This document shows, piece after piece, positions 1,822 to 14,774 of a DNA stretch of 64,000 nt. Numbering within the stretch: position 1 is the stretch's first letter; every line of letters begins with the position of its first letter. Under the pieces are notes generated by a model, which was not told the DNA's origin, searched no databases, and saw only the letters and a program-made list of their open reading frames with translations. The DNA is from Streptomyces griseus (GTDB taxonomy: Bacteria > Actinomycetota > Actinomycetes > Nanopelagicales > Nanopelagicaceae): the NCBI GenBank assembly GCA_945865365.1, contig CAMBDL010000006.1:2994-66993 (forward strand), read 5' to 3'. Both the position numbers and the translations under genes were made by a program.

Positions 1822-3117
1822 GTGAAGTCAAAGGTTTCTCGTATTTTTGCACTCATCGCTGTGATTGGGCTGGCATTTACTGTGGTCCCTCAGGCGGTAG
1901 CGGCAACTGCCAAGCCAAAGGAAGTTCGGATCGGTTTGCTCTTTCCAACTACTGGCGGTTTTGCATTACTAGGTACTGATCAAATGATCGGTGCTGAGAT
2001 GGTTCTTAAGTGGGCAAATTCCAATGGTGGTATCAACGGCGTGCCTATTAAAATTTTTTACGGCGATTCAAAGAGTAATGCAGCAGAAGGTGCGACAGCT
2101 GCACAAAGAATGATTGATAATGACAAAGTAGATATCATTATCGGTTCATACAGCTCTGGAATTGCACAGGCAGTTATGCCTGTTGCTCAGCGTAATAATG
2201 TAATTCTTTGGGAAGTTGGTGCTGTTTCTCCAACAGTTAACTCTCAAGGTTATTCAAATTTCTTGCGTACTGTTGGTGTCTCCAAGACATATGCAGCGGC
2301 AGACTATGAATTTGTAACTAAGTTCCTTGCAAAGAAGCTTGGCAAGAAGGCAACTGATCTAAGAATTGCAATTGCAAACAACAACGGTGCATTTGCAGCA
2401 AGCGTTGGCGATGCAGTTAATGCACTCTTCGTTTCAAAGGGTATGAATGTTGTTGCTAAAGAAGTTTATCCTTCAACTTCTACTGATTTAACTCCTTTGG
2501 TTCTCAAGCTTAAGGCTGCAGCACCAGATGTTCTCTTCTTAACTCCTGATGCACCAGACTCACTTCTATTCTGGCAAACAGCTAAGACACAGGATTTCAA
2601 TGTGTCTGCACTAGTTGGCTCTTCAGGAATCGGTGGAGCTGGTTTCGTTGCTAAATTCGGTGCTGCTGGAGTTGAAGGCGTCTACGACGTTGAAGCACCT
2701 GCTTTAGCATCGATGAACACTTCAGGTCTAAAGCCACGTGTTGCAGATTTAACAGCACAATGGGTTAAGGAATTTGCAGCCGCACAGGGTCACCCATGTG
2801 CAGTTCACTGTGGTGATGGAATTGGTGGAGCGTACACATTAGTTACAGATGTACTTCCACGTGCACTTCGCTCGAGCAATAGCTTCAGCGCTTCTGCAAT
2901 AGTTTCAGCAGCCAGTAAGACCAATATCCAAGAAGGTGGAACTCCTCAAGGTTTTGGTGTTCAATTCACTGGAACTAATTCAGCTACCGTTGGTGAAAAT
3001 ACCAAGGCTAAGTCAGTGATTATGCAGTGGCAAGGTGGTGTGCTCAAGGTCGTATGGCCTGTAGCACTATCAACAGCTAGTCCATTTGCACCCATGAAGA
3101 CTTGGGATCAGCGCTAG
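1822..3117 (+). CDS. Liv/HAAT-family ABC transporter substrate-binding protein
   Basis: VRIGLLFPTTGGFALLG and GGINGVPIKIFYGD motifs; signal peptide ending AVA; start GTG 1822 behind an AAGGT SD (ORF track 1783). Confidence 0.9.
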   Translation: MKSKVSRIFALIAVIGLAFTVVPQAVAATAKPKEVRIGLLFPTTGGFALLGTDQMIGAEMVLKWANSNGGINGVPIKIFYGDSKSNAAEGATAAQRMIDNDKVDIIIGSYSSGIAQAVMPVAQRNNVILWEVGAVSPTVNSQGYSNFLRTVGVSKTYAAADYEFVTKFLAKKLGKKATDLRIAIANNNGAFAASVGDAVNALFVSKGMNVVAKEVYPSTSTDLTPLVLKLKAAAPDVLFLTPDAPDSLLFWQTAKTQDFNVSALVGSSGIGGAGFVAKFGAAGVEGVYDVEAPALASMNTSGLKPRVADLTAQWVKEFAAAQGHPCAVHCGDGIGGAYTLVTDVLPRALRSSNSFSASAIVSAASKTNIQEGGTPQGFGVQFTGTNSATVGENTKAKSVIMQWQGGVLKVVWPVALSTASPFAPMKTWDQR

Positions 3118-3185
3118 CCCTTACAAGCACAATAAATAACTAAAAGAAACAACCGTTAGACAACGAGGGAAAGTGGGAGCCACCA

Positions 3186-4052
3186 ATGTTCGGTTCGGCC
3201 TTAATAAGCGGGCTGGTCATTGGCGGCTTCTACTCCTTGGTAGGAGCCGGCCTTAACCTGATTTTTGGCGTCATTAAGATAATAAATTTTGCACAAGGTG
3301 CGATGTTATCGATTGGTGCATATTTAACATATTGGTTTGTCATCACAACGAAAGTTGATCCATATTTCGCTCTGCCATTCGTCGTTCTTGTGATGGCGTT
3401 CTTTGGCTTTTTCATTCAAAAGGTTCTAATCAATCCCGTGTTAAGTCAGGAGCGAACTAGCCAGTTGCTAATTACTTTTGGAATCGCTCTGGCAATACAG
3501 AACACAACACTTGCTCTCTGGGGCCCAGATCATCGATTTGTCACAACTTTTGCTAGCGACAAAACATTTGATATCGCAGGAATTCGAGTTGCCGCCACGG
3601 CTGCTATCGCACTTCTCGGAGCTTTGATTATTTTGTCGAGTCTCTTCTTGTTCCTTTCGCGAACTCGGCTTGGAACCGCAATTCGTGCCGTCGCCCAGCA
3701 ATCTGATTCAGCGCTCTTGTCTGGAATTGATGTCAAGAGAATTTATTCGATAGCTTTTGCAATTGGAGCAGGCCTCGTTGGCTTTGCCTCAGTGCTCATT
3801 GTCCCAATTTATGATGTCTATCCATTAGTAGGTGAACGCTTTGGAATTATTGCCTTTATCGTTGTTGTACTTGGTGGGCTTGGAAATATTCAGGGGGCTG
3901 CAATTGCCGGAGTTTTCTTAGGTGTAGTTCAAAATCTCTTTGCTGTTTATATCAGTGATGACCTATCTACTGCAGTTCTTTTTCTCATGTTTTTGGCTAC
4001 TTTGCTTTTTCGCCCTCAAGGCCTTTTTGTTAGAAAGATGAGGGTTGCATAA
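3186..4052 (+). CDS. LivH-like ABC permease
   Basis: GLNLIFGVIKIINFAQG and RLGTAIRAVAQ motifs. Confidence 0.92.
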   Translation: MFGSALISGLVIGGFYSLVGAGLNLIFGVIKIINFAQGAMLSIGAYLTYWFVITTKVDPYFALPFVVLVMAFFGFFIQKVLINPVLSQERTSQLLITFGIALAIQNTTLALWGPDHRFVTTFASDKTFDIAGIRVAATAAIALLGALIILSSLFLFLSRTRLGTAIRAVAQQSDSALLSGIDVKRIYSIAFAIGAGLVGFASVLIVPIYDVYPLVGERFGIIAFIVVVLGGLGNIQGAAIAGVFLGVVQNLFAVYISDDLSTAVLFLMFLATLLFRPQGLFVRKMRVA

Positions 4053-4053
4053 A

Positions 4054-5094
4054 GTGAGTACAACGAAAGTCTTATCCGAAAATGAGCGCGCTGAAATACT
4101 TCGCCCCCCGGGACTTCGCTCAGCAGGACTGCCAGTATTCATTGTTTCATCGGTGATTCTTGTTCTTCTTTTGGCAGTACCTGTTTTAACTGATATTCGA
4201 TTTTATTATTTGCAGGTAACAATTTTAATATTTTTCTACGCCACTCTTGGCACTGCTTGGGGAATTGTCGGCGGCTACTGCGGGCAGCACTCTATAGGCC
4301 AGGCAGCCTTTGTTGGTATTGGGGCATATACATCGACTCTGCTGTACATGAAAAAAGATATCTCGCCATGGATCGGATTACTTGCAGGAATGCTATTGGC
4401 CGCACTCATAGCCTTAATAATTGGATTTCCTCTCTTTAAGTATGGTTTAAGAGGTGACTACTTTGCTTTAGGCACTGTGGCACTAGGGCTGATTATTTAC
4501 GAATTAACTAATAGTTTTGCAACACTTACGGGTGGGTCTCAAGGTATTCCGCTGAAGTATGAAGATAACCCCTGGAACTTCCAATTCCCAGATCGTAAAT
4601 ATTATTATTATATTGCTTTTATTCTTTGGTTAGCGACAGTCGTAATCTCATATCGTCTTCGCAGATCTCGCCGTGGCTTTGAAATGTTGGCGGTACGAGA
4701 TGACGAAATCGCGGCAGCCCGAGGTGGAATTAGCATCATGCGAGCTAAACTCACGGCTTTCATCATCGGAGCTGTTATCTCAGCAGCAGCAGGTACTTTT
4801 TTCGCACAGTTCCTTTTGTTCATCGACCCTGGAACCGTAATGAGTTTAGAAATCTCCGTTCAAGTAATTTTAGTAGCCGTATTGGGCGGTATGAATAGTT
4901 ACCTTGGCGGAACTGTAGGAGCGATAATTTTGATACCCGTTTCTCAATTCTTATCATCAAAGTTCACTCAATCTCCTGGCGCTGATGTGGCCGTATATGG
5001 AGTTATTTTGATTGTGCTTGTTATCTTTATGCCAAATGGAATCCTTGGACTACTCCGTAAATCACCTCGATGGCGCAAGGTTATTGGGTGGTAG
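4054..5094 (+). CDS. LivM-like ABC permease
   Basis: GYCGQHSIGQAAFVGIGAY and LRGDYFALGT motifs; start GTG 4054 (alternative TTG 4045). Confidence 0.92.
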   Translation: MSTTKVLSENERAEILRPPGLRSAGLPVFIVSSVILVLLLAVPVLTDIRFYYLQVTILIFFYATLGTAWGIVGGYCGQHSIGQAAFVGIGAYTSTLLYMKKDISPWIGLLAGMLLAALIALIIGFPLFKYGLRGDYFALGTVALGLIIYELTNSFATLTGGSQGIPLKYEDNPWNFQFPDRKYYYYIAFILWLATVVISYRLRRSRRGFEMLAVRDDEIAAARGGISIMRAKLTAFIIGAVISAAAGTFFAQFLLFIDPGTVMSLEISVQVILVAVLGGMNSYLGGTVGAIILIPVSQFLSSKFTQSPGADVAVYGVILIVLVIFMPNGILGLLRKSPRWRKVIGW

Positions 5095-5096
5095 TA

Positions 5097-5816
5097 ATGA
5101 GTAATTCAATTCTGAGTATAGAAGGTGTAACCAAAAGCTTTGGTGGTCTTGATGTCCTTAAAGGAGTTTCACTCGAGATCGAGGCAGGCTCCATTACCGG
5201 AATTATCGGCCCCAATGGAGCTGGAAAGAGCACGCTTTTTGATATTATTACCGGGTATCAAACATCAGATAATGGCTCAATATTATTTGATGGAGAAAAT
5301 ATTGTAGGACTTCCTCCACACCTTTTTGCACGTCGAGGGTTAATTCGAACCTTTCAATTAACCCGTGTATTTACGCACTTAACAGTCTCTGAAAATCTCT
5401 TAGTATTTGCCGATGCAAAGAGCTATGGTGGCTCGGCGGGAACCAAGGAAAAAGCCCTTGATTTACTGGAGTTTGTTCATCTGATTGGTTTAGCAAATGA
5501 TGAGGCTTCTACCCTCTCATATGGGCAACTTAAGTTGCTTGAGCTTGCTCAAGTATTGATGCATTCACCCAAATTATTACTACTCGACGAACCCTTCGCA
5601 GGAATAAATCCTGGGCTCATTGACAAGATCGTTCAGCATTTACGTGATCTCAATAAAGCCGGCATGACGATAGTTCTCATTGAACATAATCTTCCTATGG
5701 TGGCGAGTTTGTGTGATTCAATCGCAGTGGTGAGCAATGGAGTTATTGAAATAGTTGGTACTCCTGATGAAGTCGTGAACAACCCTCGCGTTAAGGAGGT
5801 GTTCCTAGGTGGCTAA
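5097..5816 (+). CDS. LivG-like ABC ATPase
   Basis: Walker A GPNGAGKST, LSYGQ signature, LLLLDEP. Confidence 0.93.
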   Translation: MSNSILSIEGVTKSFGGLDVLKGVSLEIEAGSITGIIGPNGAGKSTLFDIITGYQTSDNGSILFDGENIVGLPPHLFARRGLIRTFQLTRVFTHLTVSENLLVFADAKSYGGSAGTKEKALDLLEFVHLIGLANDEASTLSYGQLKLLELAQVLMHSPKLLLLDEPFAGINPGLIDKIVQHLRDLNKAGMTIVLIEHNLPMVASLCDSIAVVSNGVIEIVGTPDEVVNNPRVKEVFLGG

Positions 5817-6549
5817 TACACAGCAGAGAAATATTCTTGAAGTTCACAATCTGATATCTGGCTATGGACGAATTGAGACTCTCCATGGAATCAACATGGA
5901 TGTACCCACTGGTGGAATCACTGCAATTATTGGCCCCAATGGTTCGGGAAAGAGCTCTTTACTGAAATCCGTTTCAGGACTCATCAAAACCTGGAGCGGA
6001 AATGTTGCTTTAGATGGCAAGGACATAACGAACTTTGCAGCCCATAAGCTCGTAAATGAAGGCATGACAATGGTGCCTCAAGGAAGAGTTGTTTTTCCTC
6101 AACTCTCAGTAGAAGAGAACCTGCGTATAAATGCTTTTACCGTTAGATCAAGAGAAATAGTTCAAGAGCGGCTCGAGCAAGTGTATGAGTTTTTACCAAT
6201 ACTTTCTGAAAGGCGCAAACAGTTCGCTGGCAATCTTTCTGGTGGTGAGCAAGTAATGCTTTCAATTGCAAAGGTTTTAATGCAAAAGCCTAAACTACTT
6301 TTATTAGATGAGCCTTCATTAGGATTATCACCAAAAATTGTAGATTTTGTTTATGACCGTATTCAACTCCTTGCCAAAAATGGAGTTGATGTTTTAGTAG
6401 TTGAGCAAAATACAAAGAAAGCACTGAGTATTGCTGACCATGTTGTTGTTCTCGTTCTCGGAACTGTTCGCTTTGAAGGCGCGCCAAAAACGCTGGAAAA
6501 AGAAGTAGACCTCGGTCGATTATTTCTTGAGGGAAGGATCGCTGAGTGA
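5809..6549 (+). CDS. LivF-like ABC ATPase
   Basis: GPNGSGKSS, LSGGEQVML, LLLLDEPSLGL. Confidence 0.93.
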   Translation: MANTQQRNILEVHNLISGYGRIETLHGINMDVPTGGITAIIGPNGSGKSSLLKSVSGLIKTWSGNVALDGKDITNFAAHKLVNEGMTMVPQGRVVFPQLSVEENLRINAFTVRSREIVQERLEQVYEFLPILSERRKQFAGNLSGGEQVMLSIAKVLMQKPKLLLLDEPSLGLSPKIVDFVYDRIQLLAKNGVDVLVVEQNTKKALSIADHVVVLVLGTVRFEGAPKTLEKEVDLGRLFLEGRIAE

Positions 6550-7730: not shown

Positions 7731-7745
7731 GGAGAGTGATTTTTC

Positions 7746-8438
7746 ATGCCAGATAAACGCAGAGCTAAAGTCTCTGGAGCTGAGGCAATTGACTACACAG
7801 AAAACTCATTGCGCAGACTTATTGTCGATGGATTTTATACTCCAGGTGAGCGCATTAGTGATACTTCCCTTTCAAATGAACTTGGGGTTAGTCGCACAAC
7901 CATTCGTGAGGCTTTCCAGCGCTTAGTAAAAGAGGGTCTGATTTCCATTATTCCTAATCGGGGAGCCTTTGTTACACAATTGAGTCGGGAAGAAATTACT
8001 AAGTGCTATGAAGTTCGTGAAGCTTTAGAAGTTCATGCTGTCCGCCTAGCAACTCAAAAAGCCCCAGTTGAGCGCTTACTTGCCCTACAGGGAATGCTCA
8101 CAATTACACAGGCGTCGATTGTTGAACATGGTGGGCGCTATCCGGTAGATCTAGATTTTCACGAAAAAATCTTTGAATTAGCTGATAATGCTTTGCTTTC
8201 AGAGCACGCAAGCCAAGTGAATGCAAAATTAAGACTTTCACGCAGTAAATCTGGCTTTATGCCAGCTCGAGCTCGTGAGGCTTATGCCGAGCATGTAGAA
8301 ATTCTCAATGCAATGTTGCGAAGAGATGCTCAGGGGGCAGTAGATGCGATGCGTAATCACGTCACGAACTCACGTATAAATTCTGAAGAAAGAGAAGATT
8401 CATTGAATTCGACTAAGCAAATTCTGCTTAAGCGATAA
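7746..8438 (+). CDS. GntR family (FadR/FCD) transcriptional regulator
   Basis: wHTH ELGVSRTTIREA...NRGAFV followed by an FCD-like domain (DLDFH, EHVEIL). Confidence 0.92.
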   Translation: MPDKRRAKVSGAEAIDYTENSLRRLIVDGFYTPGERISDTSLSNELGVSRTTIREAFQRLVKEGLISIIPNRGAFVTQLSREEITKCYEVREALEVHAVRLATQKAPVERLLALQGMLTITQASIVEHGGRYPVDLDFHEKIFELADNALLSEHASQVNAKLRLSRSKSGFMPARAREAYAEHVEILNAMLRRDAQGAVDAMRNHVTNSRINSEEREDSLNSTKQILLKR

Positions 8439-8453
8439 TCGAGGGGGAAGAAA

Positions 8454-10202
8454 ATGCAGAAACTAAGAGGCGCCGATATCGTTGCTGAGTCATTAATTCG
8501 TTTGGGTATCGATTATGTCATTGGCGTGCCTGGCCATACAGTTCTGGATCTTCTTGATGCACTTCGACTTCGGCAGGATCGAATCCGAGCGATTATGGTT
8601 CGAAATGAAGAGACTTCTGGTTACATCGCGGATGCCTACTTTAGAATTTCACACAAGCCAATGGTTGTTGTTGCGCATAATAGTGTTGGTGCCGCCAATA
8701 CCCTTACGGGTGTAATGAATGCAATGTTAGATTCATCAGCCATGATTGTTATCACAGGTGATGCGTGGACAAAAACGCAAGGACGTGGAGCTTTCCAGGA
8801 GCTAACCCATTCTCGCGATGCAGGCACCGCAGATATTTTCCGTGGCAGCGTCAAGCGTTCATGGACAGTTAACAAGCCAGAGAAGCTTCTTGAAGTTCTT
8901 CTGAAAGCATATAAAGAGGCGGTCAGTGGACGCCCAGGACCAGTTCATATCGATATTACCCAGGAAGCATTTACACAGTTAGCTGATGTTGATTTCCCTG
9001 ATGACGTGTTTAATTTTGTTCCAAATTCTCGTACTCGTGGCGACGCACAAGCAACTGCACGTGCATTTGAGCTACTTAAATCAGCGAAAAAGCCAGTGAT
9101 TTTGGCTGGTGGAGGAACTAACCGTGGACAAGCAAGCTCTGCTCTCATAGCTTTTGCTGAGTCGATGAATATTCCCGTAGCAACCACATCGATGGGTAAA
9201 AGCTCGATTCCTGATGCCCACTCTCTTTCCTTGGGTGTAAGCGGATGGGTTGGCACAACTGTGGCTAACCATGCGCTTCGAAGCGCCGATGTTATTTTGG
9301 CTTTAGGTACACGATTGTCAGAGACAGACACTGCTGGGTTTACAGATGGCGCTGTTTTATCGATCTCAACTACTAAATTAATTCATGTCGATATTGATCC
9401 CGTAGAGATTGCGCGTTTTTACCCAGTTGCCGAAGGAATTGTTGGCGATGTAGCTGCGGTACTTGAAGACTTACTTGTTCTTGCGCAAGCGTCTGGGGAT
9501 GCAAAGTCTGCCCGAACAGAGTGGTGGGATTCCATCAAGGAGGTTCAAGAGTCGTGGAAAAAAGAGGTCGCTGATTCATTTAATCCAGAATCAGATCCAA
9601 TCGAACCAGGATATTTGACGCAAGAGATTAGAAAGGCACTTCCAAAAGATGGAATTATGATGACCGATGTCGGTAATTCCCAAAAATGGATCATTCAACA
9701 GTTCCCAACCTATGGACCAGATACTTTTGTCACTAGCCTCGGTGGAGCATCAATGGGCTTTGGTCCTTGCGGAGTTGCAGGCGCTCAACTTGCAGCACCA
9801 GATAAACGTGTTGCAATCATTACTGGTGATGGAAGTATGTCGATGAGCTTGCATATCTATCCAACGATTGTTGAACTTGGTTTACCAATTGTCTATATCG
9901 TTGCAAATGACTATGCATGGGCATCAGTTGATGGACCACAAGCACGTCGCTTTGGTCCCAACCAGAGCTTCTTCACTCGTTTCACCCTTCCTAATGGTGA
10001 GCCTTATAAGTTAGATTTTGCTGCAGTAGCAAATGCATGTGGGCTCAAGGCAGAGCGCGTTCTTTCATCTAAGGATCTGCCAGCTGCTCTTGCTCGTGCA
10101 TTTGCCGCGGGAGTTCCTTACCTATTAGACGTAGAAGTTCGTCGTGATACTTATGTTCCAATGACTGCTCGTGGGGCATATCCACTTCCAGAAGTGGAAT
10201 AG
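8454..10202 (+). CDS. ThDP-dependent enzyme, acetolactate-synthase-like fold, substrate unknown
   Basis: IGVPG, RNEE (conserved Glu), SGRPGPVHIDI, GDGSM...ND ThDP motif. Confidence 0.88.
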   Translation: MQKLRGADIVAESLIRLGIDYVIGVPGHTVLDLLDALRLRQDRIRAIMVRNEETSGYIADAYFRISHKPMVVVAHNSVGAANTLTGVMNAMLDSSAMIVITGDAWTKTQGRGAFQELTHSRDAGTADIFRGSVKRSWTVNKPEKLLEVLLKAYKEAVSGRPGPVHIDITQEAFTQLADVDFPDDVFNFVPNSRTRGDAQATARAFELLKSAKKPVILAGGGTNRGQASSALIAFAESMNIPVATTSMGKSSIPDAHSLSLGVSGWVGTTVANHALRSADVILALGTRLSETDTAGFTDGAVLSISTTKLIHVDIDPVEIARFYPVAEGIVGDVAAVLEDLLVLAQASGDAKSARTEWWDSIKEVQESWKKEVADSFNPESDPIEPGYLTQEIRKALPKDGIMMTDVGNSQKWIIQQFPTYGPDTFVTSLGGASMGFGPCGVAGAQLAAPDKRVAIITGDGSMSMSLHIYPTIVELGLPIVYIVANDYAWASVDGPQARRFGPNQSFFTRFTLPNGEPYKLDFAAVANACGLKAERVLSSKDLPAALARAFAAGVPYLLDVEVRRDTYVPMTARGAYPLPEVE

Positions 10203-10204
10203 AT

Positions 10205-11668
10205 ATGAAAACTCTAGTTTCACAGCGTGGTATTTGGATAAATGGCCAAGAGCGGCCGGGTGCCAGTGGTAAAACACTCGATGTCGTAAACCCATTTAAT
10301 GGGCTTACGCTTGCAACATTTTCAATGGCTTCTGGCAAAGATGCTGATGATGCAATTGCATCGGCTTCTGCGACATTTAAGAATGTTATGCGCACTATGC
10401 CCGCCTATGAGCGAGCCCAAATTCTACGTCGTGCAGCTGCGGAGATTAGAGATGGTGCGAAAGAGTTAATAGAGATAGTTGTCGGTGAAGCTGGCAAGCC
10501 AATTCGAGATGCAACACGTGAGATTGGTCGTGCATCAACGTTGCTAGAGCTTGCAGCTGATTACACGATGGTTCAACAAGGACAAGTGATTCCTATGGAC
10601 ATCGTTGAAAGTGGAGTCAATCGAACTGGAATTGCAAACCGCGTTCCTGTTGGCGTCATTGTTGCAATTGCTCCCTCTAACTCGCCAGTTAACTTAACCA
10701 TTAACAAAATTGGCCCAGCCTTTGCAGCTGGAAATACTGTAGTTCTCAAACCATCAGATCAAACTCCAATATCTGCCCTGTGGTTAGCTGCAGCATTTAA
10801 GCGAGCCGGACTTCCCGATGGTGCTTTCAATGTGATTATCGGTGAAGTGGAAGAGGCAATTGAGCCATTAGTGCGCGACCAAAGAGTTCGAATGATCAGC
10901 ATTACAGGTGGCGTTCCAGCAGGTTTGGCAGTGATAAAAGCTGCTGGAATTAAGAAAGTTGTACTGGAGTTAGGTTCAAGTGCAGCTAACGTAGTTCGGG
11001 CAGATGCCGATGTTGCGGCAGCGGCTAAAAGTCTTGCTACATCTGCTTATTTATCCTCAGGCCAAGCATGCATATCGGCTCAGAGAATATTTGTGCACAC
11101 TTCTATTGAGAAAGAGTTCACCAAACTATTTATTGAGGCAACCGAGGCGATGAAAATCGGCGATCCAATGGATCCGGCAGTTGAAATAGGGCCCATGGTT
11201 TCGCAAACTCAAGTACAGCGAGTACTCGGGTGGATTGAAGAAGCTGTTGCTGCCGGTGCGAAAGTGCTGACTGGTGGGGTAGCAGTTGCCAGAACTATTA
11301 AGCCAACCTTGTTGTCGAACGTTCCAGAGAACGTCACGATTTCTAGCAGTGAGGTTTTCTCACCTATAGCAGTATTGCAAACTTTTACCGAAGATGACGA
11401 TGTCATTGAGCGCGTTAATTCATCTGTCTTTGGCTTACAAGCTGGAGTCTTTACTAATGACCTGAGAGCAGCTTTCCGCTTTGGGCGAGATATCGATGCG
11501 GGAGCTATTTGGATCAACGATTCATCTAGATATCGCCAGGATAATTATCCATTCGGTGGAATGAAGATGAGTGGCGTTGGACGCGAAGGCGTTCAGTATG
11601 CAATTGAAGAGATGACCGAATGGAAGTTTCTTGGATTTAAGCTCGGACCTTCTGCCGGAATTCTTTAA
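10205..11668 (+). CDS. NAD(P)-dependent aldehyde dehydrogenase (LactADH/PhnY/SafD-like branch)
   Basis: VVLKPSDQTP, LELGS, GQACIS catalytic Cys, PFGGMKMSGVGREG. Confidence 0.92.
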   Translation: MKTLVSQRGIWINGQERPGASGKTLDVVNPFNGLTLATFSMASGKDADDAIASASATFKNVMRTMPAYERAQILRRAAAEIRDGAKELIEIVVGEAGKPIRDATREIGRASTLLELAADYTMVQQGQVIPMDIVESGVNRTGIANRVPVGVIVAIAPSNSPVNLTINKIGPAFAAGNTVVLKPSDQTPISALWLAAAFKRAGLPDGAFNVIIGEVEEAIEPLVRDQRVRMISITGGVPAGLAVIKAAGIKKVVLELGSSAANVVRADADVAAAAKSLATSAYLSSGQACISAQRIFVHTSIEKEFTKLFIEATEAMKIGDPMDPAVEIGPMVSQTQVQRVLGWIEEAVAAGAKVLTGGVAVARTIKPTLLSNVPENVTISSSEVFSPIAVLQTFTEDDDVIERVNSSVFGLQAGVFTNDLRAAFRFGRDIDAGAIWINDSSRYRQDNYPFGGMKMSGVGREGVQYAIEEMTEWKFLGFKLGPSAGIL

Positions 11669-11704: not shown

Positions 11705-12061
11705 ATGAGCGTCGTTGATAGCAGGGGCTTACCGTGGAATGAACCGCCCGGACACTTTGGTGGTTTTTCAAAGTATCTTGTTAATGATGAAAATGAGGGC
11801 AGCAAGTACTTTGATTTCAGAATCTCTCGTTATCCAATCAAGGGACTGGTAGAGCAGCACACGCATGAGATTGCCGAGCAGATTTTTTATTTTATCTCTG
11901 GCACCGGCACAGTCTGGTATGGGGATGAAAAAACAATCGTTGGCCCTGGATTTACAATGTTTGTGCCACCTAAAATCAATCATGGCGTTGAAAATACTGG
12001 TGATGACGATTTGGTTTTTATTGTTGCAACCTCGCCACCGAATGATGTTCCGAGAAACTAA
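11705..12061 (+). CDS. Cupin_2 domain protein
   Basis: HTHEIAEQIFYFISGTG...FVPPKINHGVEN metal-binding cupin motifs. Confidence 0.88.
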   Translation: MSVVDSRGLPWNEPPGHFGGFSKYLVNDENEGSKYFDFRISRYPIKGLVEQHTHEIAEQIFYFISGTGTVWYGDEKTIVGPGFTMFVPPKINHGVENTGDDDLVFIVATSPPNDVPRN

Positions 12062-12066
12062 TCATC

Positions 12067-13563
12067 ATGCAATATGACGTCATAGTTGTTGGTGCTGGAA
12101 ATGCCGCGCTGTGTGCAGCGTTAATGGCGCAAGAAAATGGTGCAAAGGTTTTGATTCTTGAAAGTGCCCCCGCCTCTGCACGCGGTGGAAACTCATTTTT
12201 CTCTGGAGGGTGGATGAGATTTACTCACAACGGGGCAGATGATTTAGGTAGTTCATTTCCAGAGTTAGCATTGGCCGGTAAAGAGGATTTTGATGTACTG
12301 AGATATCCCGAGAATGAGTTTTTCGACGATATGTCCTCTATAACTGAGTATCGGGGTGATCCAGAGCTCACTTCTCTTGTTGTAAAAGAATCGCGAAAGG
12401 CCATGGAGTGGCTGCACTCTAAAGGAATTCGATTAGTTTTTACTTTTAGTAAGCAAGGTTTAAAGCACAATAAGCGTTTCCAAGTAGGTGGCGGTTCAAT
12501 TGCTGTTAGTGGCGGTGGAGCTGGACTTGTAGAAAAACTCTTTGAAAATGTAGAAAAAGCTGGTATAGAGATTAGCTACCAGACTAGAGCCATTGAACTT
12601 TTAGGCGTTCCCGGACAGCGGGTAACTGGTGTTAAAGTTAGAAATTCTGCCGGTGAAATAGTTGAAATAAGTTCACAATCAGTTGTACTCGCAAGCGGTG
12701 GTTTTGGTGCAAGTACAGAAAAACGCAGTAGATATCTTGGTCCAGGGTGGGATTTAGCGAAATTAAGAGGCAGCGATTTTAATCTTGGCGACGGCATTGA
12801 TATGGCACTTGCCTTCGGTGCTAAATCAGCCGGCCATTGGAGCGGCAGCCATGCCGTTGCATGGGATGCAAGTGCACCGACAAGCGGTGATAGAAATAGA
12901 GGCAATGAGTTTTCAAGAAACTCTTACACCATGGGAATTATGGTGAATAAGAATGCCGAACGTTTCCTAGATGAGGGCGTTGATTACTCGGCCATCACCT
13001 ATGGAAAAATTGGCACCGAGATTATGCGCCAACCTGACTCGATGGCATTTCAGATCTTTGATTCTAAAGTTCTAGAGATTCTCGATCCTAACTACAACGG
13101 TCGACAAGTATCTAAGATAACTGCCCAAACTGTTGAAGAGCTAGCAAAGAAATTAGATCTAGATCCCATTATCCTGGCTCGAACAATTGCGAATTTCAAT
13201 GTATCTGTCGATGAATCAAAAACCTTTGATCCAAATTGCAAAGATGGAAAGTCAACTATTGGCTTGATACCTAAGAAATCTAACTGGGCTAATAGAATTG
13301 ATGCAGCACCCTATGTAGCGTTCCCAGTGACCACCGGATTAACTTTTACTTTTGGTGGCGTACACGCGGATGAAAAAGCACGGATTATCGACACTCAAAA
13401 TCGCCCTATTGAAGGCTTATTCGGTGCTGGCGAGCTAGTCGGAGGAATTTTCTACTATTCATCACCATCTGGGGCTGGCCTCACAGCGGGCACAGTTTTA
13501 GGGCGTACGGCAGGTCGTGAGGCTGCACGTGCACTAAGCAAAAATTCCCCGCTTTTAAAATAG
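12067..13563 (+). CDS. tcuA: FAD-dependent tricarballylate dehydrogenase TcuA/CobZ-like flavoprotein
   Basis: YDVIVVGAGNAALCAA, RGGNS, GIMVNKNAERFLDEG, TFTFGG, GLFGAGELVGG. Confidence 0.82.
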   Translation: MQYDVIVVGAGNAALCAALMAQENGAKVLILESAPASARGGNSFFSGGWMRFTHNGADDLGSSFPELALAGKEDFDVLRYPENEFFDDMSSITEYRGDPELTSLVVKESRKAMEWLHSKGIRLVFTFSKQGLKHNKRFQVGGGSIAVSGGGAGLVEKLFENVEKAGIEISYQTRAIELLGVPGQRVTGVKVRNSAGEIVEISSQSVVLASGGFGASTEKRSRYLGPGWDLAKLRGSDFNLGDGIDMALAFGAKSAGHWSGSHAVAWDASAPTSGDRNRGNEFSRNSYTMGIMVNKNAERFLDEGVDYSAITYGKIGTEIMRQPDSMAFQIFDSKVLEILDPNYNGRQVSKITAQTVEELAKKLDLDPIILARTIANFNVSVDESKTFDPNCKDGKSTIGLIPKKSNWANRIDAAPYVAFPVTTGLTFTFGGVHADEKARIIDTQNRPIEGLFGAGELVGGIFYYSSPSGAGLTAGTVLGRTAGREAARALSKNSPLLK

Positions 13564-13565
13564 GG

Positions 13566-14774
13566 TTGATGAAACTTCAAAAACCTATCTGGCCGTATGC
13601 ATTATTAGCACATGCACTTTTTCTGCAACTAGGAACATTTGTTGTACGCCCTGCGGCGACTTATCGGGCCATTGAATTAGGAGTTAATCCAGGTGTTATA
13701 GGCTTGATTGCATCGAGCTTTGCATTCTTACCACTCTTTGCTGCAGTATTAATAGGACGAGCATCTGATCGAGGTAAAAACTCGGCAATTCTATTAGTTG
13801 GTTCAGTTATTTTGATTTTCACTGGAGTGGGTTTTATTTTTTACGCATACTCGATCTTCTCTCTCATAATTCTTAATTTGTTACTTGGGTTGGGTCATCT
13901 AATGAGTGTTATTGGACAACAAAGTAAAGTTGCTCAAGGCGAGCGTGCAACTCTTGATTCAGCTTTTGGTCTCTACACATTCGCAGGATCTTTGGGGCAA
14001 ACACTTGGTCCAGCGTCGATAATCCTTTTTGGTGGACGTTCAATCATTCCTAACACTAAAGATCTTTTCATTTTTTATCTCATGGCCTCAATCATTTTAT
14101 TTGTAATAACATTACAACTGATTCGAAATTCCGCATCTAACGCTAGTGAGGTACTTGAAGGGAAAAAGGTAAGTCTCTTTTCTTCCTATCAACAAATTGA
14201 ACCAGGGGCTAAAAAAGGAGTATCTGGTGCGCTATTGATTAGCTTAGTTGTCATAGGTTCGGTAGACGTTCTATCGATTTATCTTCCAGTTCTGGGGCTC
14301 GATAGAAAGATTCCTGCCGCCACGATTGGCGTTTTACTCAGCGTACGTTCAATAGCTACTGTTTTGTCGAGATTCTATTTGGGACCACTTTCATTGAAGT
14401 ATGGTCGAAATCGCTTATTGATTACCTCAGTGGCAACATCTGCACTATTTATGGGTTCATTAGTATTTGCTCTGCCACTGTGGATCACAGGAGTTTTACT
14501 ATTTTGCTTAGGGTTTGCTTTGGGAATAGGCCAACCACTCACGATGACAATAATTACTCTTGCCGTTCCTTCACATTCACGTGGAACCTGGTTAGCGCTG
14601 CGACTGACTGCGAATCGAGTAGGACAGAGTGTTTTACCAGCTTCGATCGGATTGTGCAGCGCTATTGCCGGTGTCACCGGAGTCTTTACTGCGAATGCAC
14701 TTGTATTGGGCGCGACCGCTCTAACCTCAGGATATTTGATGCCTAGACGTGATGAGCAAAGCGATATTGAATAA
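13566..14774 (+). CDS. MFS transporter
   Basis: About 12 TM segments, GRASDRG motif A; last gene of the operon; ATG at 13569 is an alternative start. Confidence 0.88.
   Translation: MMKLQKPIWPYALLAHALFLQLGTFVVRPAATYRAIELGVNPGVIGLIASSFAFLPLFAAVLIGRASDRGKNSAILLVGSVILIFTGVGFIFYAYSIFSLIILNLLLGLGHLMSVIGQQSKVAQGERATLDSAFGLYTFAGSLGQTLGPASIILFGGRSIIPNTKDLFIFYLMASIILFVITLQLIRNSASNASEVLEGKKVSLFSSYQQIEPGAKKGVSGALLISLVVIGSVDVLSIYLPVLGLDRKIPAATIGVLLSVRSIATVLSRFYLGPLSLKYGRNRLLITSVATSALFMGSLVFALPLWITGVLLFCLGFALGIGQPLTMTIITLAVPSHSRGTWLALRLTANRVGQSVLPASIGLCSAIAGVTGVFTANALVLGATALTSGYLMPRRDEQSDIE

What the first reader, a model, noticed from the sequence alone, without database searches (positions are those of the whole stretch)
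1822..14774. Apparently undescribed catabolic operon: Liv-type ABC, PrpF/Mii isomerase, GntR, ThDP enzyme, ALDH, cupin, TcuA-like dehydrogenase, MFS
Seen: 12 co-oriented genes with overlaps or gaps under 70 nt. Spot GC counts vary (21/60 at 4141-4200, 24/60 at 13741-13800 and 29/60 at 9421-9480, against 31/60 at 34141-34200 in gabT), a weak hint of an accessory origin. Known: TcuA desaturates tricarballylate to cis-aconitate; the PrpF/LigU/Mii family isomerises unsaturated di- and tricarboxylates; a ThDP decarboxylase plus an ALDH converts a 2-oxo acid to the acid one carbon shorter. I do not recognise this combination from any characterised pathway. Inference, route A: a 2-oxo-tricarboxylate (4-oxalomesaconate or its saturated form) is decarboxylated and oxidised to aconitate or tricarballylate, which TcuA and the isomerase funnel to cis-aconitate. 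Route B: a tricarballylate-like acid is desaturated first and the ThDP/ALDH pair acts downstream.
Basis: partly seen in the sequence, partly recalled or inferred. Interest (0 to 1): 0.85.

Follow-up and report, generated by a model that had tools for sequence, protein, structure and literature searches.

The report
Uncharacterised acid-catabolism operon of lake Actinobacteria
A conserved, repressor-controlled operon in abundant freshwater (acI) Actinobacteria combines a binding-protein importer with five enzymes in an arrangement matching no pathway I could find, most likely to break down an acidic lactone or 2-oxo polycarboxylate without coenzyme A.

Summary
The window comes from a freshwater acI actinobacterium (Nanopelagicales). 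The same gene order recurs in at least five acI lineages with three different sets of flanking genes. Orthologues of the binding protein, ThDP enzyme, ALDH, cupin, GntR and PrpF-like isomerase stay clustered in genomes of 45-70% GC. A palindromic operator, ATTGT-N2-ACAAT, marks the cluster promoters and occurs nowhere else in 1.4 Mb of fetched loci. Lake metatranscriptomes contain its RNA. Ten literature searches found no matching published pathway. The "TcuA" is a TcuA-family flavoprotein of a subfamily not linked to TcuB. The isomerase is closest to 3-methylitaconate isomerase. The ThDP enzyme has decarboxylase-type acid/base residues. Related clusters add a PrpB-like lyase and a lactone-type hydrolase. 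The substrate remains unproven; ring-fission lactones or oxalo-tricarboxylates such as PDC or 4-oxalomesaconate are the best-fitting guess. The GC argument is not supported. Interest is moderate to high.

The parts
1051..1644 (-). Isochorismatase-family hydrolase, divergently transcribed from the shared regulatory region. It is a possible 13th member in this lineage.
   Evidence: Pfam Isochorismatase 142 bits. Conserved at this position only in the close relatives L008 and L016. The motif GMSTSIGVESTA has Gly where the amidase members of the family carry the catalytic Cys (that this marks the vinyl-ether-hydrolase type is from my memory of PhzD/EntB). Lineages without it carry a DLH-family hydrolase after the MFS gene. 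A cupin orthologue in Acidimicrobiia sits next to an isochorismatase-family gene, but one only 22% identical to this one. Membership is inferred, not shown.
1692..1703 (.). Operator O1, ATTGTTGACAAT (inverted repeat ATTGT-N2-ACAAT). Presumed GntR site.
   Evidence: The exact 12-mer ATTGTTGAYAAT occurs twice in the 64-kb window, both times here. It occurs 14 times in 1.38 Mb of fetched loci against 0.58 expected, in 9 loci, all carrying the cluster. Thirteen sites lie in the intergenic region upstream of the binding-protein gene or upstream of gntR; the L017 site at 171 lies about 30 nt inside the ORF as called. Binding by the GntR protein is inferred.
1742..1771 (+). Promoter: -35 TTGACA (1742-1747), operator O2 ATTGTTGATAAT (1753-1764) within the spacer, candidate -10 TAGCCT (1766-1771).
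   Evidence: TTGACA is invariant in the upstream regions of five loci at 72-97% divergence. The generic sigma-70 scan finds no more sites than chance, so the promoter call rests on conservation and position. The -10 assignment (TANNNT type) is my reading.
1782..1797 (.). TGTGACTCGTTACACA, a CRP/GlxR-like palindrome in the 5' leader.
   Evidence: Read directly from the sequence. Partly conserved in L008 and L016. Function not tested.
1822..3117 (+). Secreted solute-binding protein of the Liv/HAAT type (Peripla_BP_6).
   Evidence: Pfam 163 bits. Signal peptide ending AVA/A. The best solved relative is 8WCH, SAR11_0655, which binds L-pyroglutamate (103 bits). Orthologues are 52-57% identical in high-GC clusters and 41% in A. 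mengziensis. It is the most represented part in lake metatranscriptome contigs.
3186..4052 (+). ABC permease (LivH type).
   Evidence: BPD_transp_2, 113 bits.
4045..5094 (+). ABC permease (LivM type).
   Evidence: BPD_transp_2, 117 bits.
5070..5816 (+). ABC ATPase (LivG type).
   Evidence: ABC_tran plus BCA_ABC_TP_C.
5809..6549 (+). ABC ATPase (LivF type).
   Evidence: ABC_tran, 114 bits.
6546..7730 (+). PrpF-family double-bond isomerase, closest to 3-methylitaconate delta-isomerase (Mii).
   Evidence: Pfam PrpF 398 bits. PDB scores: Mii 3G7K 316 bits, PrpF 254, LigU 166. The residues aligned with Mii Lys62 and Cys96 are conserved (that these two are the catalytic pair is from memory). It falls below the NCBIfam equivalog cut-offs for prpF (310 against 441) and OMA tautomerase (312 against 440).
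7746..8438 (+). GntR/FCD transcription regulator.
   Evidence: GntR plus FCD domains. Present in every orthologous cluster at 41-93% identity. In several lineages the operator lies directly upstream of this gene.
8454..10202 (+). ALS/POX-family ThDP enzyme, predicted non-oxidative 2-oxo-acid decarboxylase.
   Evidence: Three ThDP domains. Below the cut-off of all 25 NCBIfam models listed, of 52 matched. Best PDB hit is BbmA at 259 bits. The orthologue family is small: about 47 clusters at 45% identity or more, then a drop to 42-37%. Invariant residues include Glu52, the G458-D-G...N485-D ThDP motif, His28, His75 and Glu290. These last three align with Ser26, His70 and His281 of benzoylformate decarboxylase, whose sequence I recalled from memory.
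10205..11668 (+). NAD(P)-dependent aldehyde dehydrogenase.
   Evidence: Aldedh 480 bits. The nearest named models are all below cut-off: archaeal lactaldehyde DH 436, betaine-aldehyde DH 357, SafD 352, PhnY 337. It always directly follows the ThDP gene in the orthologous clusters, except in A. mengziensis, where the permease genes intervene.
11705..12061 (+). Small metal-binding cupin.
   Evidence: Cupin_2. His52, His54, Glu58 and His93 are invariant. AF2 model has pLDDT 92.8. Foldseek neighbours are TM1459, TM1287, RemF, KdgF and DddK, all at about 20% identity. The family is rare, with 21 clusters found.
12067..13563 (+). TcuA-family FAD dehydrogenase of the subfamily not linked to TcuB.
   Evidence: NF006130 scores 520 (cut-off 369) but TIGR02485 scores 257 (cut-off 373). 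It is 47-49% identical to subfamily members in Ruegeria, Hydrogenophaga, Bradyrhizobium and Shinella, and 36-37% to a TcuB-linked TcuA. His262, Tyr312, Thr426, Arg51, Arg234 and Arg299 are invariant across both subfamilies. Three residues of the fumarate-reductase tetrad (R402, H504, R544) are replaced.
13566..14774 (+). MFS carrier.
   Evidence: MFS_1 107 bits. Conserved together with the TcuA-like gene in acI and L007 (48-52% identity). In L018 and L102 a different MFS takes its place.

Best explanation
This is one GntR-repressed regulon for CoA-independent catabolism of an imported organic acid. It belongs to the flexible genome of freshwater acI Actinobacteria.

Proposed sequence of events:
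1. The Liv-type ABC system imports the compound.
2. If it arrives as an alpha-carboxy enol-lactone or enol-ether, the metal cupin opens it to the 2-oxo acid. A lineage-specific hydrolase (DLH type, or isochorismatase type here) may assist.
3. The ALS-like ThDP enzyme removes the C1 carboxyl.
4. The ALDH oxidises the resulting aldehyde, giving an acid one carbon shorter. This would be a substituted succinate of the aconitate or tricarballylate type.
5. The TcuA-family flavoprotein desaturates the saturated form.
6. The Mii/PrpF-type isomerase moves or flips the double bond to the cis-aconitate type.
7. Housekeeping aconitase takes over; in non-acI versions a PrpB-like lyase would also act.
8. 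The MFS carrier, which co-varies with the flavoprotein, would bring in the already shortened acid.

Shown: the gene families, conserved synteny, co-inheritance of the core genes, the operator, expression in lakes, and conservation of catalytic residues.

Inferred: every chemical step, the order of steps, and the substrate. The best-fitting specific case is 2-pyrone-4,6-dicarboxylate/4-oxalomesaconate to trans-aconitate to cis-aconitate. That is a guess from chemistry and context.
For: Single functional unit:
- Gene order is identical in at least five acI lineages, with different flanks.
- SBP, ThDP, ALDH, cupin, GntR and PrpF-like genes stay clustered at 41-69% identity in genomes of GC 0.54-0.70.
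- The operator ATTGT-N2-ACAAT occurs only at cluster promoters, 14 sites against 0.58 expected.
- RNA contigs from four lake metatranscriptomes map to it.

ThDP/ALDH as a decarboxylase-dehydrogenase pair:
- The two genes are adjacent in every orthologous cluster except A. mengziensis.
- The cofactor motif and activating Glu are invariant, and His28, His75 and Glu290 sit at the three acid/base positions of benzoylformate decarboxylase.
- The enzyme is below every ALS equivalog cut-off listed.

Order (importer, then ThDP):
- A. mengziensis keeps only SBP (41%), ThDP (48%), the permeases and ATPases, and an ALDH.

ALDH product feeding a TcuA-family enzyme:
- ALDH or HIBADH-like genes lie beside TcuA-family genes in Sneathiella, Limnochordales, Shinella and Martelella.

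Desaturate, isomerise, hydrate, cleave logic:
- A Hydrogenophaga plasmid carries TctC, TcuA-like, LeuCD-like, TctC and PrpF.
- A PrpB-like lyase is present in L007, L014, L015, L018 and L100-L102.
- The isomerase is closest to Mii and keeps the residues aligned with Mii Lys62 and Cys96.
- The residues invariant across the TcuA family are kept.

Lactone or enol-ether entry:
- A DLH gene lies in the operon in two acI lineages.
- An isochorismatase-family neighbour is present here.
- A cupin orthologue lies beside an isochorismatase-family gene and a 4-sulfomuconolactone-hydrolase-like Amidohydro_2 gene.
- The SBP's best solved relative binds 5-oxoproline.
- KdgF is among the cupin's structural neighbours.
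Against: - No substrate, product or activity is shown.
- The flavoprotein is the least conserved component. L100 and L102 replace it with a KstD-like enzyme plus an SRPBCC protein, so it may not act on the same intermediate everywhere.
- For 4-oxalomesaconate itself the flavoprotein would be unnecessary.
- The acI clusters lack the PrpB-like lyase and any hydratase, so completing the pathway relies on unseen housekeeping genes.
- The cupin's role is assigned only from about 20% identical structural neighbours.
- The A. mengziensis ALDH is only 37% identical and may not be orthologous.
- The SBP match to the pyroglutamate binder is weak, at 103 bits.
- The benzoylformate decarboxylase comparison uses a sequence recalled from memory.
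- The electron acceptor of the flavoprotein is unknown, since there is no TcuB or ETF here.
Confidence: 0.4

Rival explanations
1. Reverse order, the reader's route B. The flavoprotein first oxidises an imported substituted malate or succinate to an enol or alkene. The PrpF-like enzyme tautomerises or isomerises it to a 3-substituted oxaloacetate-type 2-oxo acid. The ThDP enzyme and ALDH convert that to a substituted malonate. The cupin removes the extra carboxyl; in L100 and L102 an AMDase-like enzyme would do this.
For: An arylmalonate-decarboxylase/EutA-like gene lies directly upstream of the ThDP gene in L100 and L102. The cupin has a 3-His/1-Glu site like the Mn-dependent oxalate decarboxylases, with TM1287 among its neighbours. 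OMA tautomerase is one of the two best NCBIfam hits of the isomerase. That succinate-dehydrogenase-type enzymes oxidise malate to enol-oxaloacetate is established knowledge, from memory.
Against: A. mengziensis has the importer, ThDP enzyme and an ALDH without any flavoprotein or isomerase. The PrpB-like lyase and the LeuCD-like hydratase contexts fit better downstream of desaturation. A hydrolase (DLH or isochorismatase type) has no role in this order.
Confidence: 0.2
2. Ring route with beta-ketoadipate-like logic. A saturated lactone, lactam or alicyclic keto-carboxylate is imported. A flavoprotein (TcuA-like here, KstD-like elsewhere) desaturates the ring next to the carbonyl. The PrpF-like enzyme shifts the double bond to the enol-lactone. 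DLH or the cupin hydrolyses it to a 2-oxo acid, which ThDP and ALDH shorten. Alternatively the ThDP enzyme is itself a ring C-C hydrolase, like cyclohexane-1,2-dione hydrolase or IolD.
For: TcuA-like and KstD-like desaturases are interchangeable between clusters; the KstD-like one scores 419 bits on 4-oxocyclohexanecarboxylate 2-dehydrogenase. DLH lies in the operon. A CMD-like gene sits beside PrpB-like and ThDP in L015 and L101. SDR and VOC genes are present in L015 and L101. The SBP relative binds a 5-oxo heterocycle. CDH is a 174-bit PDB hit of the ThDP enzyme.
Against: The A. mengziensis minimal cluster has no desaturase, isomerase or hydrolase. The ThDP enzyme is closer to BbmA and ALS than to CDH. 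The PrpB-like, PrpD-like, TctC and LeuCD contexts point to open-chain tricarboxylates.
Confidence: 0.15
3. Ehrlich-type catabolism of an acidic non-protein amino acid, such as a substituted glutamate or aspartate. The Liv system imports it. A housekeeping transaminase, or the flavoprotein acting like L-aspartate oxidase, makes the 2-oxo acid. ThDP and ALDH then shorten it.
For: The Liv/HAAT importer family mostly carries amino acids. L-aspartate oxidase belongs to the same FAD_binding_2 superfamily. The A. mengziensis mini-cluster fits this scheme. The AruI/KauB precedent for 2-ketoarginine is from memory.
Against: No aminotransferase or deaminase lies in any of the clusters examined. The flavoprotein carries the TcuA-family residues, not the NadB ones, and scores about 48 bits on NadB models. 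The SBP's closest characterised relative binds a non-amino lactam acid.
Confidence: 0.1
4. Organosulfonate or organophosphonate route. Sulfopyruvate or phosphonopyruvate is decarboxylated to sulfo- or phosphonoacetaldehyde and oxidised to sulfo- or phosphonoacetate, which the MFS carrier exports.
For: There are weak name-level hints. The ALDH's better hits include SafD (352 bits) and PhnY (337). The GntR's best hit is the phosphonate-associated PhnR (105 bits). The MFS's best hit is PgtP (49 bits). A Bradyrhizobium TcuA-like gene lies beside an SsuA-type ABC system. PEP-mutase-superfamily genes occur in relatives.
Against: All these hits are far below their cut-offs. The PEP-mutase-superfamily genes are of the PrpB or petal-death-protein type, and one passes the prpB cut-off. 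The ThDP enzyme is no closer to Xsc than to ALS. No sulfite exporter or C-P cleaving enzyme lies in the cluster. The PrpF-like enzyme would have no role.
Confidence: 0.05
5. Not one pathway. Two or three independent modules have been juxtaposed: ABC system plus isomerase, ThDP plus ALDH plus cupin, and flavoprotein plus MFS.
For: The flavoprotein and MFS genes evolve faster and are replaced in other lineages. In L003, L007 and L009/L010 there are two promoter regions. The A. mengziensis cluster lacks three of the enzymes.
Against: Both promoter regions carry the same operator. In the window all 12 genes lie behind one promoter region with gaps of 68 nt or less. SBP, PrpF-like, ThDP, ALDH and cupin genes are co-inherited across phylum-level GC differences.
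Confidence: 0.07

Closest known systems
Salmonella tcuRABC tricarballylate utilisation (TcuA flavoprotein, TcuB Fe-S electron shuttle, TcuC carrier)
   Same: The flavoprotein belongs to the same family: it passes NF006130 and shares the family-invariant His262, Tyr312, Thr426 and three Arg residues. A carrier gene follows it directly.
   Different: There is no TcuB anywhere in the window. It is only 36-37% identical to a TcuB-linked TcuA and falls below the TIGR02485 cut-off. The regulator is GntR, not LysR. Five further enzymes and an ABC importer are attached.
Tail of nicotinate fermentation in Eubacterium barkeri (Mii 3-methylitaconate isomerase, DmdAB hydratase, Dml 2,3-dimethylmalate lyase)
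   Same: The isomerase's best solved relative is Mii (316 bits), and the residues aligned with Mii Lys62 and Cys96 are conserved. Related clusters carry a lyase of the PrpB/Dml superfamily. A related TcuA-like cluster carries a LeuCD/Dmd-type hydratase.
   Different: The acI operon has no hydratase, no B12 mutase and no lyase. It is aerobic and has a ThDP/ALDH pair and a flavoprotein, which the E. barkeri pathway lacks.
Decarboxylase plus aldehyde dehydrogenase pairs: mandelate pathway MdlC/MdlD, and the cyanobacterial 2-oxoglutarate decarboxylase plus succinic semialdehyde dehydrogenase bypass
   Same: An ALS/POX-family ThDP enzyme is directly followed by an ALDH. His and Glu residues sit at the benzoylformate decarboxylase acid/base positions. 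More distant clusters add MR_MLE and FMN-dependent 2-hydroxy-acid oxidase genes, as in the mandelate pathway.
   Different: Identity to benzoylformate decarboxylase is about 24%. The ALDH is below the SSADH cut-offs. The associated genes (PrpF-like, TcuA-like, PrpB-like, cupin) point to aliphatic polycarboxylates, not aromatic acids.
Protocatechuate 4,5-cleavage and gallate lower pathway (LigI PDC hydrolase, LigU or GalD PrpF-family isomerase/tautomerase, LigJ hydratase, LigK aldolase)
   Same: A PrpF-family enzyme is combined with a lactone-type hydrolase. The Acidimicrobiia cupin neighbour is an Amidohydro_2 enzyme scoring 228 bits on the 4-sulfomuconolactone hydrolase model; that this family is related to LigI is from memory. 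The pathway intermediates are 2-oxo tricarboxylates, which ThDP and ALDH would turn into aconitate or citrate (chemistry on paper).
   Different: No LigI, LigJ or LigK homologue is in the cluster. The isomerase is much closer to Mii than to LigU (316 against 166 bits). A decarboxylase/ALDH branch from these intermediates has not been described, to my knowledge.
2-Methylcitrate cycle, AcnD/PrpF variant (PrpC, AcnD, PrpF, PrpB)
   Same: A PrpF-family isomerase is present, and relatives carry a PrpB-type lyase. The L007 copy passes the prpB equivalog cut-off, 380 against 354.
   Different: There is no PrpC, AcnD, PrpD or PrpE. The isomerase is below the prpF equivalog cut-off. No CoA-dependent step is present.
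trans-Aconitate assimilation by PrpF-family aconitate isomerases (Pseudomonas aconitate isomerase, Ustilago Adi1)
   Same: The same enzyme family would carry out the final step proposed here, trans- to cis-aconitate.
   Different: Those systems are an isomerase plus a transporter only. No sequence comparison with a characterised aconitate isomerase was possible here.

Membership tests
TcuA tricarballylate dehydrogenase (tcuABC system) | FAD_binding_2 flavoprotein scoring above the curated family thresholds | tested here: inconclusive
   NF006130 scores 520 against a cut-off of 369 (met). TIGR02485 (TcuA/CobZ equivalog) scores 257 against 373 (not met).
TcuA tricarballylate dehydrogenase (tcuABC system) | Partner TcuB, the membrane Fe-S protein that re-oxidises the flavin, encoded alongside | tested here: not met
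   tblastn with a TcuB from a tcuA-tcuB pair finds nothing in the 64-kb window (best E = 2). A blastp search of the ORFs of loci L001-L095 also finds nothing.
TcuA tricarballylate dehydrogenase (tcuABC system) | Residues invariant in TcuB-linked TcuA | tested here: met
   His262, Tyr312, Thr426, Arg51, Arg234 and Arg299 are invariant across the window protein, eight subfamily members and Martelella TcuA.
TcuA tricarballylate dehydrogenase (tcuABC system) | Oxidises tricarballylate to cis-aconitate | not testable with these tools
   This needs an enzyme assay.
PrpF / Mii / LigU isomerase family (PF04303) | Full-length PrpF domain with the Lys/Cys pair | tested here: met
   Pfam 398 bits over 5-371 of 371 positions. 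The residues aligned with Mii Lys62 and Cys96 are conserved; that these are the catalytic pair is from memory.
PrpF sensu stricto (2-methylaconitate isomerase) and GalD (OMA tautomerase) | Score above the NCBIfam equivalog cut-off, and the pathway partners (AcnD/PrpB/PrpC, or GalA/GalB/GalC) nearby | tested here: not met
   prpF scores 310 against 441, and OMA tautomerase 312 against 440. None of the partner genes is in the cluster.
Acetolactate synthase (AHAS/ALS) | Score above an ALS equivalog cut-off | tested here: not met
   The best is TIGR00118 at 388 against 538. All 25 models listed, of 52 matched, are below their cut-offs.
Acetolactate synthase (AHAS/ALS) | Small, non-ionisable residue after the N-terminal 'PG' motif (Gly or Ala in carboligases) | tested here: not met
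   His28 is invariant here. It aligns with Ser26 of benzoylformate decarboxylase. The statement about ALS is from memory.
ThDP-dependent 2-oxo-acid decarboxylases (functional class) | ThDP-activating Glu, GDG...N(D/N) motif, and acid/base residues to protonate the enamine | tested here: met
   Glu52, G458-D459-G460...N485-D486, His28, His75 and Glu290 are invariant in 24 orthologues. Their positions match BFDC Glu47, Ser26, His70 and His281 (BFDC sequence from memory). Activity was not tested.
GntR/FCD repressor with palindromic operator | N-terminal GntR wHTH plus C-terminal FCD domain, and a GT-Nx-AC type inverted repeat at the controlled promoters | tested here: met
   Both domains are present. 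ATTGT-N2-ACAAT lies at the cluster promoters in 10 loci and nowhere else. Binding itself was not tested.
Protocatechuate 4,5-cleavage lower pathway (LigI/LigU/LigJ/LigK) | Amidohydrolase-type PDC hydrolase, OMA hydratase and CHA aldolase genes | tested here: not met
   No Amidohydro_2, RraA-like or HpcH gene is in the acI clusters. Only a PrpF-family gene and, in some lineages, a DLH hydrolase are present.
2-Methylcitrate cycle | PrpC synthase, PrpD or AcnD dehydratase, and PrpB lyase | tested here: not met
   None is in the window cluster. A PrpB-like gene occurs only in non-acI relatives and L007.

The most novel reading that the evidence does not exclude
The operon encodes an undescribed alpha-oxidation shunt. 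It would take ring-fission products of lignin- or humic-derived hydroxybenzoates (2-pyrone-4,6-dicarboxylate, 4-oxalomesaconate, 4-carboxy-4-hydroxy-2-oxoadipate or carboxymuconolactone-type lactones) and convert them, by ThDP-dependent decarboxylation plus aldehyde oxidation, directly into TCA-cycle tricarboxylates (trans-aconitate, citrate, tricarballylate). A TcuB-independent TcuA-type dehydrogenase and an aconitate-type isomerase would finish the job. That would bypass the hydratase/aldolase branch. It would also give the most abundant freshwater bacteria a way to scavenge carboxyl-rich breakdown products released by other microbes.
Probability: 0.12. Interest if true: 0.85.

Novelty: new variant of a known kind. 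Interest (0 to 1): 0.62.

Why it matters
acI Actinobacteria are among the most numerous bacteria in lakes, and their genomes are very small. A 13-kb operon that is regulated, expressed and exchanged between strains therefore probably targets a substrate that matters in lake dissolved organic matter.

Its Liv-type binding protein would be counted as a "branched-chain amino acid" transporter by standard annotation, and its flavoprotein as "tricarballylate dehydrogenase". Both labels are probably misleading.

Identifying the ligand would name a new currency of freshwater carbon cycling. It would also assign functions to four things:
- a small orphan clade of ThDP enzymes;
- a widespread TcuA subfamily that works without TcuB;
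- a rare cupin family;
- aerobic Mii-like isomerases.

The same core cluster occurs in soil and peat Actinobacteria-like genomes and, in reduced form, in a cultured Alicyclobacillus. Experiments are therefore feasible.

Tried and rejected
Searches that found nothing useful:
- Ten full-text literature searches found no paper describing this gene combination. Terms covered BbmA/CsmA, tricarballylate dehydrogenase with PrpF/cupin/thiamine, Planktophila, itaconate/methylsuccinate, oxalomesaconate, hydroxycitrate, R. pomeroyi and TcuA. Only the 8WCH search gave something usable, the SBP ligand lead.
- The metagenome scan with a ThDP alignment chose generic motifs. It returned mostly 30-41% paralogues and only three new orthologous loci. 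The paralogue contexts still turned out informative.
- A plasmid search with the ThDP enzyme found only 34-36% paralogues.
- Generic sigma-70 promoter and terminator scans gave no more sites than shuffled sequence.
- The SAR11 paper had no supplementary files held as text, so the binding-site residues of 8WCH could not be compared.

Analyses of limited value:
- GC as a sign of foreign origin is rejected.
- Foldseek on a confident cupin model returned only generic small metallo-cupins at about 20% identity. This is a lead, not an assignment.

Readings considered and rejected:
- True ALS, glyoxylate carboligase, Xsc, oxalyl-CoA decarboxylase, IolD or CDH identity for the ThDP enzyme. All score lower than, or similar to, the generic ALS models and lie below their cut-offs.
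- PEP mutase or phosphonopyruvate hydrolase identity for the PrpB-like genes.
- A classical fumarate-reductase active site for the flavoprotein.

Considered but left open for lack of any test: hydroxycitrate or isocitrate lactones, maleimides from tetrapyrrole breakdown, unsaturated uronates, 4-substituted glutamates and ascorbate products.

Full report
**1. What is there**

Between 1822 and 14774, twelve + strand genes follow each other with gaps of -25 to +68 nt.
- a Liv/HAAT-type binding protein, two permeases and two ATPases;
- a PrpF-family protein;
- a GntR/FCD regulator;
- a three-domain ThDP enzyme;
- an aldehyde dehydrogenase;
- a 118-residue cupin;
- a FAD_binding_2 flavoprotein that NCBI's NF006130 model would name TcuA;
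- an MFS carrier.

It has an RBS, it is conserved in relatives, and a Sec signal peptide follows.

The four co-oriented genes downstream (GNAT, alpha-amylase, DinB, BacA) are not part of the unit. In other genomes the cluster is followed by quite different genes.

**2. Where it comes from**

A genome scan with the ThDP enzyme found 80-97% identical copies only in lake metagenome-assembled Actinomycetota, including 'Candidatus Planktophila' (lineage Nanopelagicales). The DNA is held by at least 20 lake or freshwater metagenome runs. The window is therefore from an acI actinobacterium.

**3. Is it a real unit?**

Conserved order. The same 12 genes in the same order occur in L003/L004, L007, L008, L009/L010, L016 and L017. 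ThDP identity is 78-97% and flavoprotein identity 57-91%.

Different flanks.
- Here: TerC, PGPGW and isochorismatase upstream; GNAT, amylase, DinB and BacA downstream.
- In L003: a DLH gene and PEPCK downstream.
- In L010: an ABC-2 exporter upstream; DLH and GreA downstream.

Assembly evidence. In lake metagenome assemblies the contigs break at about 1715-1737 and about 15061-15099, which is at or just past the cluster borders. Sequence at 651-938, just upstream of the cluster, is also held at about 40x by variant contigs about 5% divergent. The cluster itself is covered only at the roughly 11x of the strain's own contigs. This suggests a flexible-genome element. GC content does not show it: 0.444 against 0.464, with the neighbours equally low.

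Conservation outside acI. Orthologues of SBP (52-57%), ThDP (56-69%), ALDH (58-69%), cupin (50-69%), GntR (41-44%) and the PrpF-like gene (50%) remain clustered in contigs of GC 0.54-0.70 (L018, L100, L102).

**4. Regulation**

The 177-nt region upstream of the binding-protein gene holds two copies of a palindrome:
- ATTGTTGACAAT at 1692-1703;
- ATTGTTGATAAT at 1753-1764.

The second copy lies between an invariant TTGACA (1742-1747) and a candidate -10, TAGCCT.

The exact 12-mer occurs 14 times in 1.38 Mb of fetched loci against 0.58 expected. All sites are in cluster-bearing loci. All but one lie in an intergenic region, either upstream of the binding-protein gene or in the PrpF-gntR gap. L100, with a ThDP enzyme 56% identical, has ATTGTCGACAGT at both equivalent places. 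This GT-Nx-AC type inverted repeat is what GntR-family repressors recognise (established knowledge). I infer that it is the operator of the cluster's own regulator.

In the window the PrpF-gntR gap is only 15 nt, so one promoter region serves all twelve genes. In other lineages there are two co-regulated units.

Contigs from four lake metatranscriptomes map to the cluster, mostly to the binding-protein gene, with fragments on LivM/LivG, gntR and the ALDH. This shows expression, but coverage is too thin to show co-transcription.

**5. The enzymes, one by one**

*ThDP enzyme.*
- It is below the cut-off of every NCBIfam model listed, including all ALS, Xsc and pyruvate oxidase models.
- Its best solved relative is BbmA at 259 bits.
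- Its orthologue family is small, about 47 clusters, then a drop to 42% identity or less.
- Glu52, the GDG...ND motif, His28, His75 and Glu290 are invariant.
- Aligned with benzoylformate decarboxylase, these fall on Glu47, Ser26, His70 and His281. I wrote that sequence out from memory, so this point needs checking.
- This is the residue pattern of a decarboxylase that must protonate its enamine, not that of a carboligase.

*ALDH.* It directly follows the ThDP gene everywhere except in A. mengziensis. Its nearest named models, all below cut-off, act on small anionic or hydroxy aldehydes.

*Isomerase.* It is closest to 3-methylitaconate isomerase (316 bits, against 254 for PrpF and 166 for LigU). 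It keeps the residues aligned with Mii Lys62 and Cys96.

*Flavoprotein.*
- Against flavocytochrome c3 it keeps His365 and Arg381, but it has Tyr, Thr and Ser at Arg402, His504 and Arg544.
- The same Tyr312 and Thr426, together with His262, are invariant in the whole TcuA family, including a TcuA encoded next to TcuB. It is therefore a genuine TcuA-family enzyme.
- It belongs, however, to a subfamily 47-49% identical to it that is not linked to TcuB. It is only 36-37% identical to the TcuB-linked type.
- No TcuB is present.

*Cupin.* It has an invariant His-x-His-x3-Glu...His metal site and a confident model (pLDDT 92.8). Its structural neighbours are small metallo-cupins of diverse function: TM1459, TM1287, RemF, KdgF and DddK.

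*Binding protein.* Its best solved relative, 8WCH, is SAR11_0655, shown by Clifton et al. (PMC11485210) to bind L-pyroglutamate with Kd below 5 nM. The match is weak at 103 bits. Even so, it warns against reading "Liv" as "branched-chain amino acid".

**6. What the relatives add**

- Alicyclobacillus mengziensis has only IclR | SBP-ThDP-LivHMGF-ALDH. SBP identity is 41% and ThDP 48%. The importer and the ThDP enzyme therefore travel together.
- Every non-acI version, and L007, carries a lyase of the PrpB or petal-death-protein type next to the cupin or ALDH.
- Two acI lineages have a dienelactone-hydrolase-family gene overlapping the end of the MFS gene.
- The window's lineage instead has a divergent isochorismatase-family gene that lacks the amidase Cys.
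- An Acidimicrobiia cupin orthologue (57% identical) lies beside an isochorismatase-family gene and an Amidohydro_2 enzyme most like 4-sulfomuconolactone hydrolase.
- High-GC versions replace or supplement the TcuA-like gene with a KstD-like desaturase plus an SRPBCC protein, and add an arylmalonate-decarboxylase/EutA-like gene.
- Clusters around 36-41% identical ThDP paralogues again contain PrpF, PrpB-like, cupin, ALDH, PrpD-like, MR_MLE and TctC genes.
- The non-TcuB TcuA subfamily is found in four further contexts:
  - next to a ThDP enzyme in Ruegeria pomeroyi;
  - between TctC, LeuCD-like and PrpF genes in Hydrogenophaga;
  - next to ETF in Bradyrhizobium;
  - with HIBADH-like, HpcH, CHA-aldolase-like, ALDH and Tct genes in Shinella.

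**7. How it most likely works**

Three themes recur.
1. A decarboxylase and aldehyde dehydrogenase pair is tied to the importer.
2. A desaturate, isomerise, (hydrate), cleave set works on tricarboxylate-like acids.
3. Enzymes that open lactones or enol ethers are present.

The order that uses them with the fewest assumptions is as follows.
1. The compound is imported.
2. If needed, the cupin or hydrolase opens an alpha-carboxy enol-lactone to the 2-oxo acid.
3. ThDP decarboxylation and ALDH oxidation give an acid one carbon shorter.
4. The TcuA-type enzyme desaturates the saturated form.
5. The Mii/PrpF-type isomerase converts it to a cis-aconitate-type alkene for aconitase. In other lineages a PrpB-like lyase follows.

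On paper, 2-pyrone-4,6-dicarboxylate opens to 4-oxalomesaconate. Decarboxylation and oxidation would then give trans-aconitate, the classic substrate of PrpF-family aconitate isomerases. The hydrated analogue would give citrate, and the saturated one tricarballylate.

I rate the general scheme at about 0.4 and this specific substrate at about 0.1. The flavoprotein is not needed for oxalomesaconate itself. It co-varies with the MFS gene. The last two genes may therefore form a side entrance for an already shortened, saturated acid.

Every chemical step is inference.

**8. Rivals**

The rivals are listed with their evidence in the rival-explanations section:
- the reverse order (route B, with a final malonate-type decarboxylation);
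- a ring route with beta-ketoadipate-like logic, or a CDH/IolD-like ThDP hydrolase;
- Ehrlich-type breakdown of an acidic amino acid;
- a sulfonate or phosphonate route;
- chance juxtaposition of modules.

None is excluded.

**9. Comparison with known systems, and novelty**

The cluster shares single components with the following systems but fails the defining partner-gene tests of each (see the membership table):
- tcuRABC tricarballylate utilisation;
- the Mii/Dmd/Dml tail of nicotinate fermentation;
- MdlC/MdlD-type decarboxylase-dehydrogenase pairs;
- the LigI/LigU/LigJ/LigK lower pathway;
- the AcnD/PrpF methylcitrate cycle.

I found no description of the combination. The paper library and my ten searches are limited, so a publication could have been missed.

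All families are known; the arrangement and the probable pathway are not. I therefore file it as a new variant of a known kind, a substrate-specific catabolic operon. Interest is moderate to high because of the organism's abundance and the prospect of naming a new lake metabolite.

Noticed in passing
window 23222-33162 (- strand) and 33219-34559 (+): A second compact cluster. It holds an MR_MLE enolase-superfamily gene, an ABC ATPase, permeases, an SBP_bac_6 binding protein, a Zn-ADH, an ALDH, a TauE sulfite-exporter-family protein and an Orn/Lys/Arg-type decarboxylase. It looks like another uncharacterised amine or sulfonate catabolic unit.
   Followed up: partly
window 1782-1797: TGTGACTCGTTACACA, a CRP/GlxR-like palindrome, lies between the predicted promoter and the RBS of the binding-protein gene. 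It is partly conserved in L008 and L016. It may mean catabolite control on top of the GntR operator.
   Followed up: partly
window 1051-1644 (-): The isochorismatase-family protein has Gly (GMSTSIGVESTA) where the amidase members of the family have the nucleophilic Cys. By memory of PhzD/EntB, this points to an isochorismatase-like vinyl-ether hydrolase. The product of such a reaction is a 2-oxo acid.
   Followed up: partly
L097 (Hydrogenophaga sp. BPS33 plasmid pBPS33-1) 7941-14507: A cluster of TctC, TcuA-like, LeuC-like, LeuD-like, TctC and a PrpF-domain protein. This desaturase-hydratase-isomerase set for a tricarboxylate-transporter substrate also seems undescribed.
   Followed up: no
L096 (Ruegeria pomeroyi DSS-3 megaplasmid) 1-10459: The best plasmid match of the flavoprotein (49% identity) has no annotated gene in the PLSDB table and matches in two pieces, so it may be a frameshift or pseudogene. 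It follows a ThDP protein, two 800-residue FAD oxidoreductases, a class-III aminotransferase and an MttB-family methyltransferase.
   Followed up: no
L104 3898-5886 and L105 (Acidimicrobiia): A trio of cupin orthologue, isochorismatase-family gene and Amidohydro_2 gene (4-sulfomuconolactone-hydrolase-like, 228 bits) occurs without the rest of the cluster.
   Followed up: partly
L014 7878-9608 and 11930-13211: In this 1-Mb contig the flavoprotein and the ALDH are each split into two ORFs. These are either long-read indel errors or decaying genes.
   Followed up: no
window 18010-20000: Contig depth in lake metagenomes rises from about 11x to 240x over the TldD/PmbA genes. The first 18 kb of the window thus seems to be carried by a small fraction of the related population, while the adjacent genes are shared widely.
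   Followed up: partly
window 34569-41238: A phosphate-limitation block: response regulator, histidine kinase, PhoU, two Pst-type permeases, an ATPase and a PstS-like binding protein. This is ordinary.
   Followed up: no
window 3118-3185: The only sizeable gap inside the operon (68 nt) follows the binding-protein gene, and metatranscriptome contigs cover that gene far more than the rest. This is consistent with the excess of binding-protein mRNA common in ABC operons. No terminator-like element was found there.
   Followed up: partly
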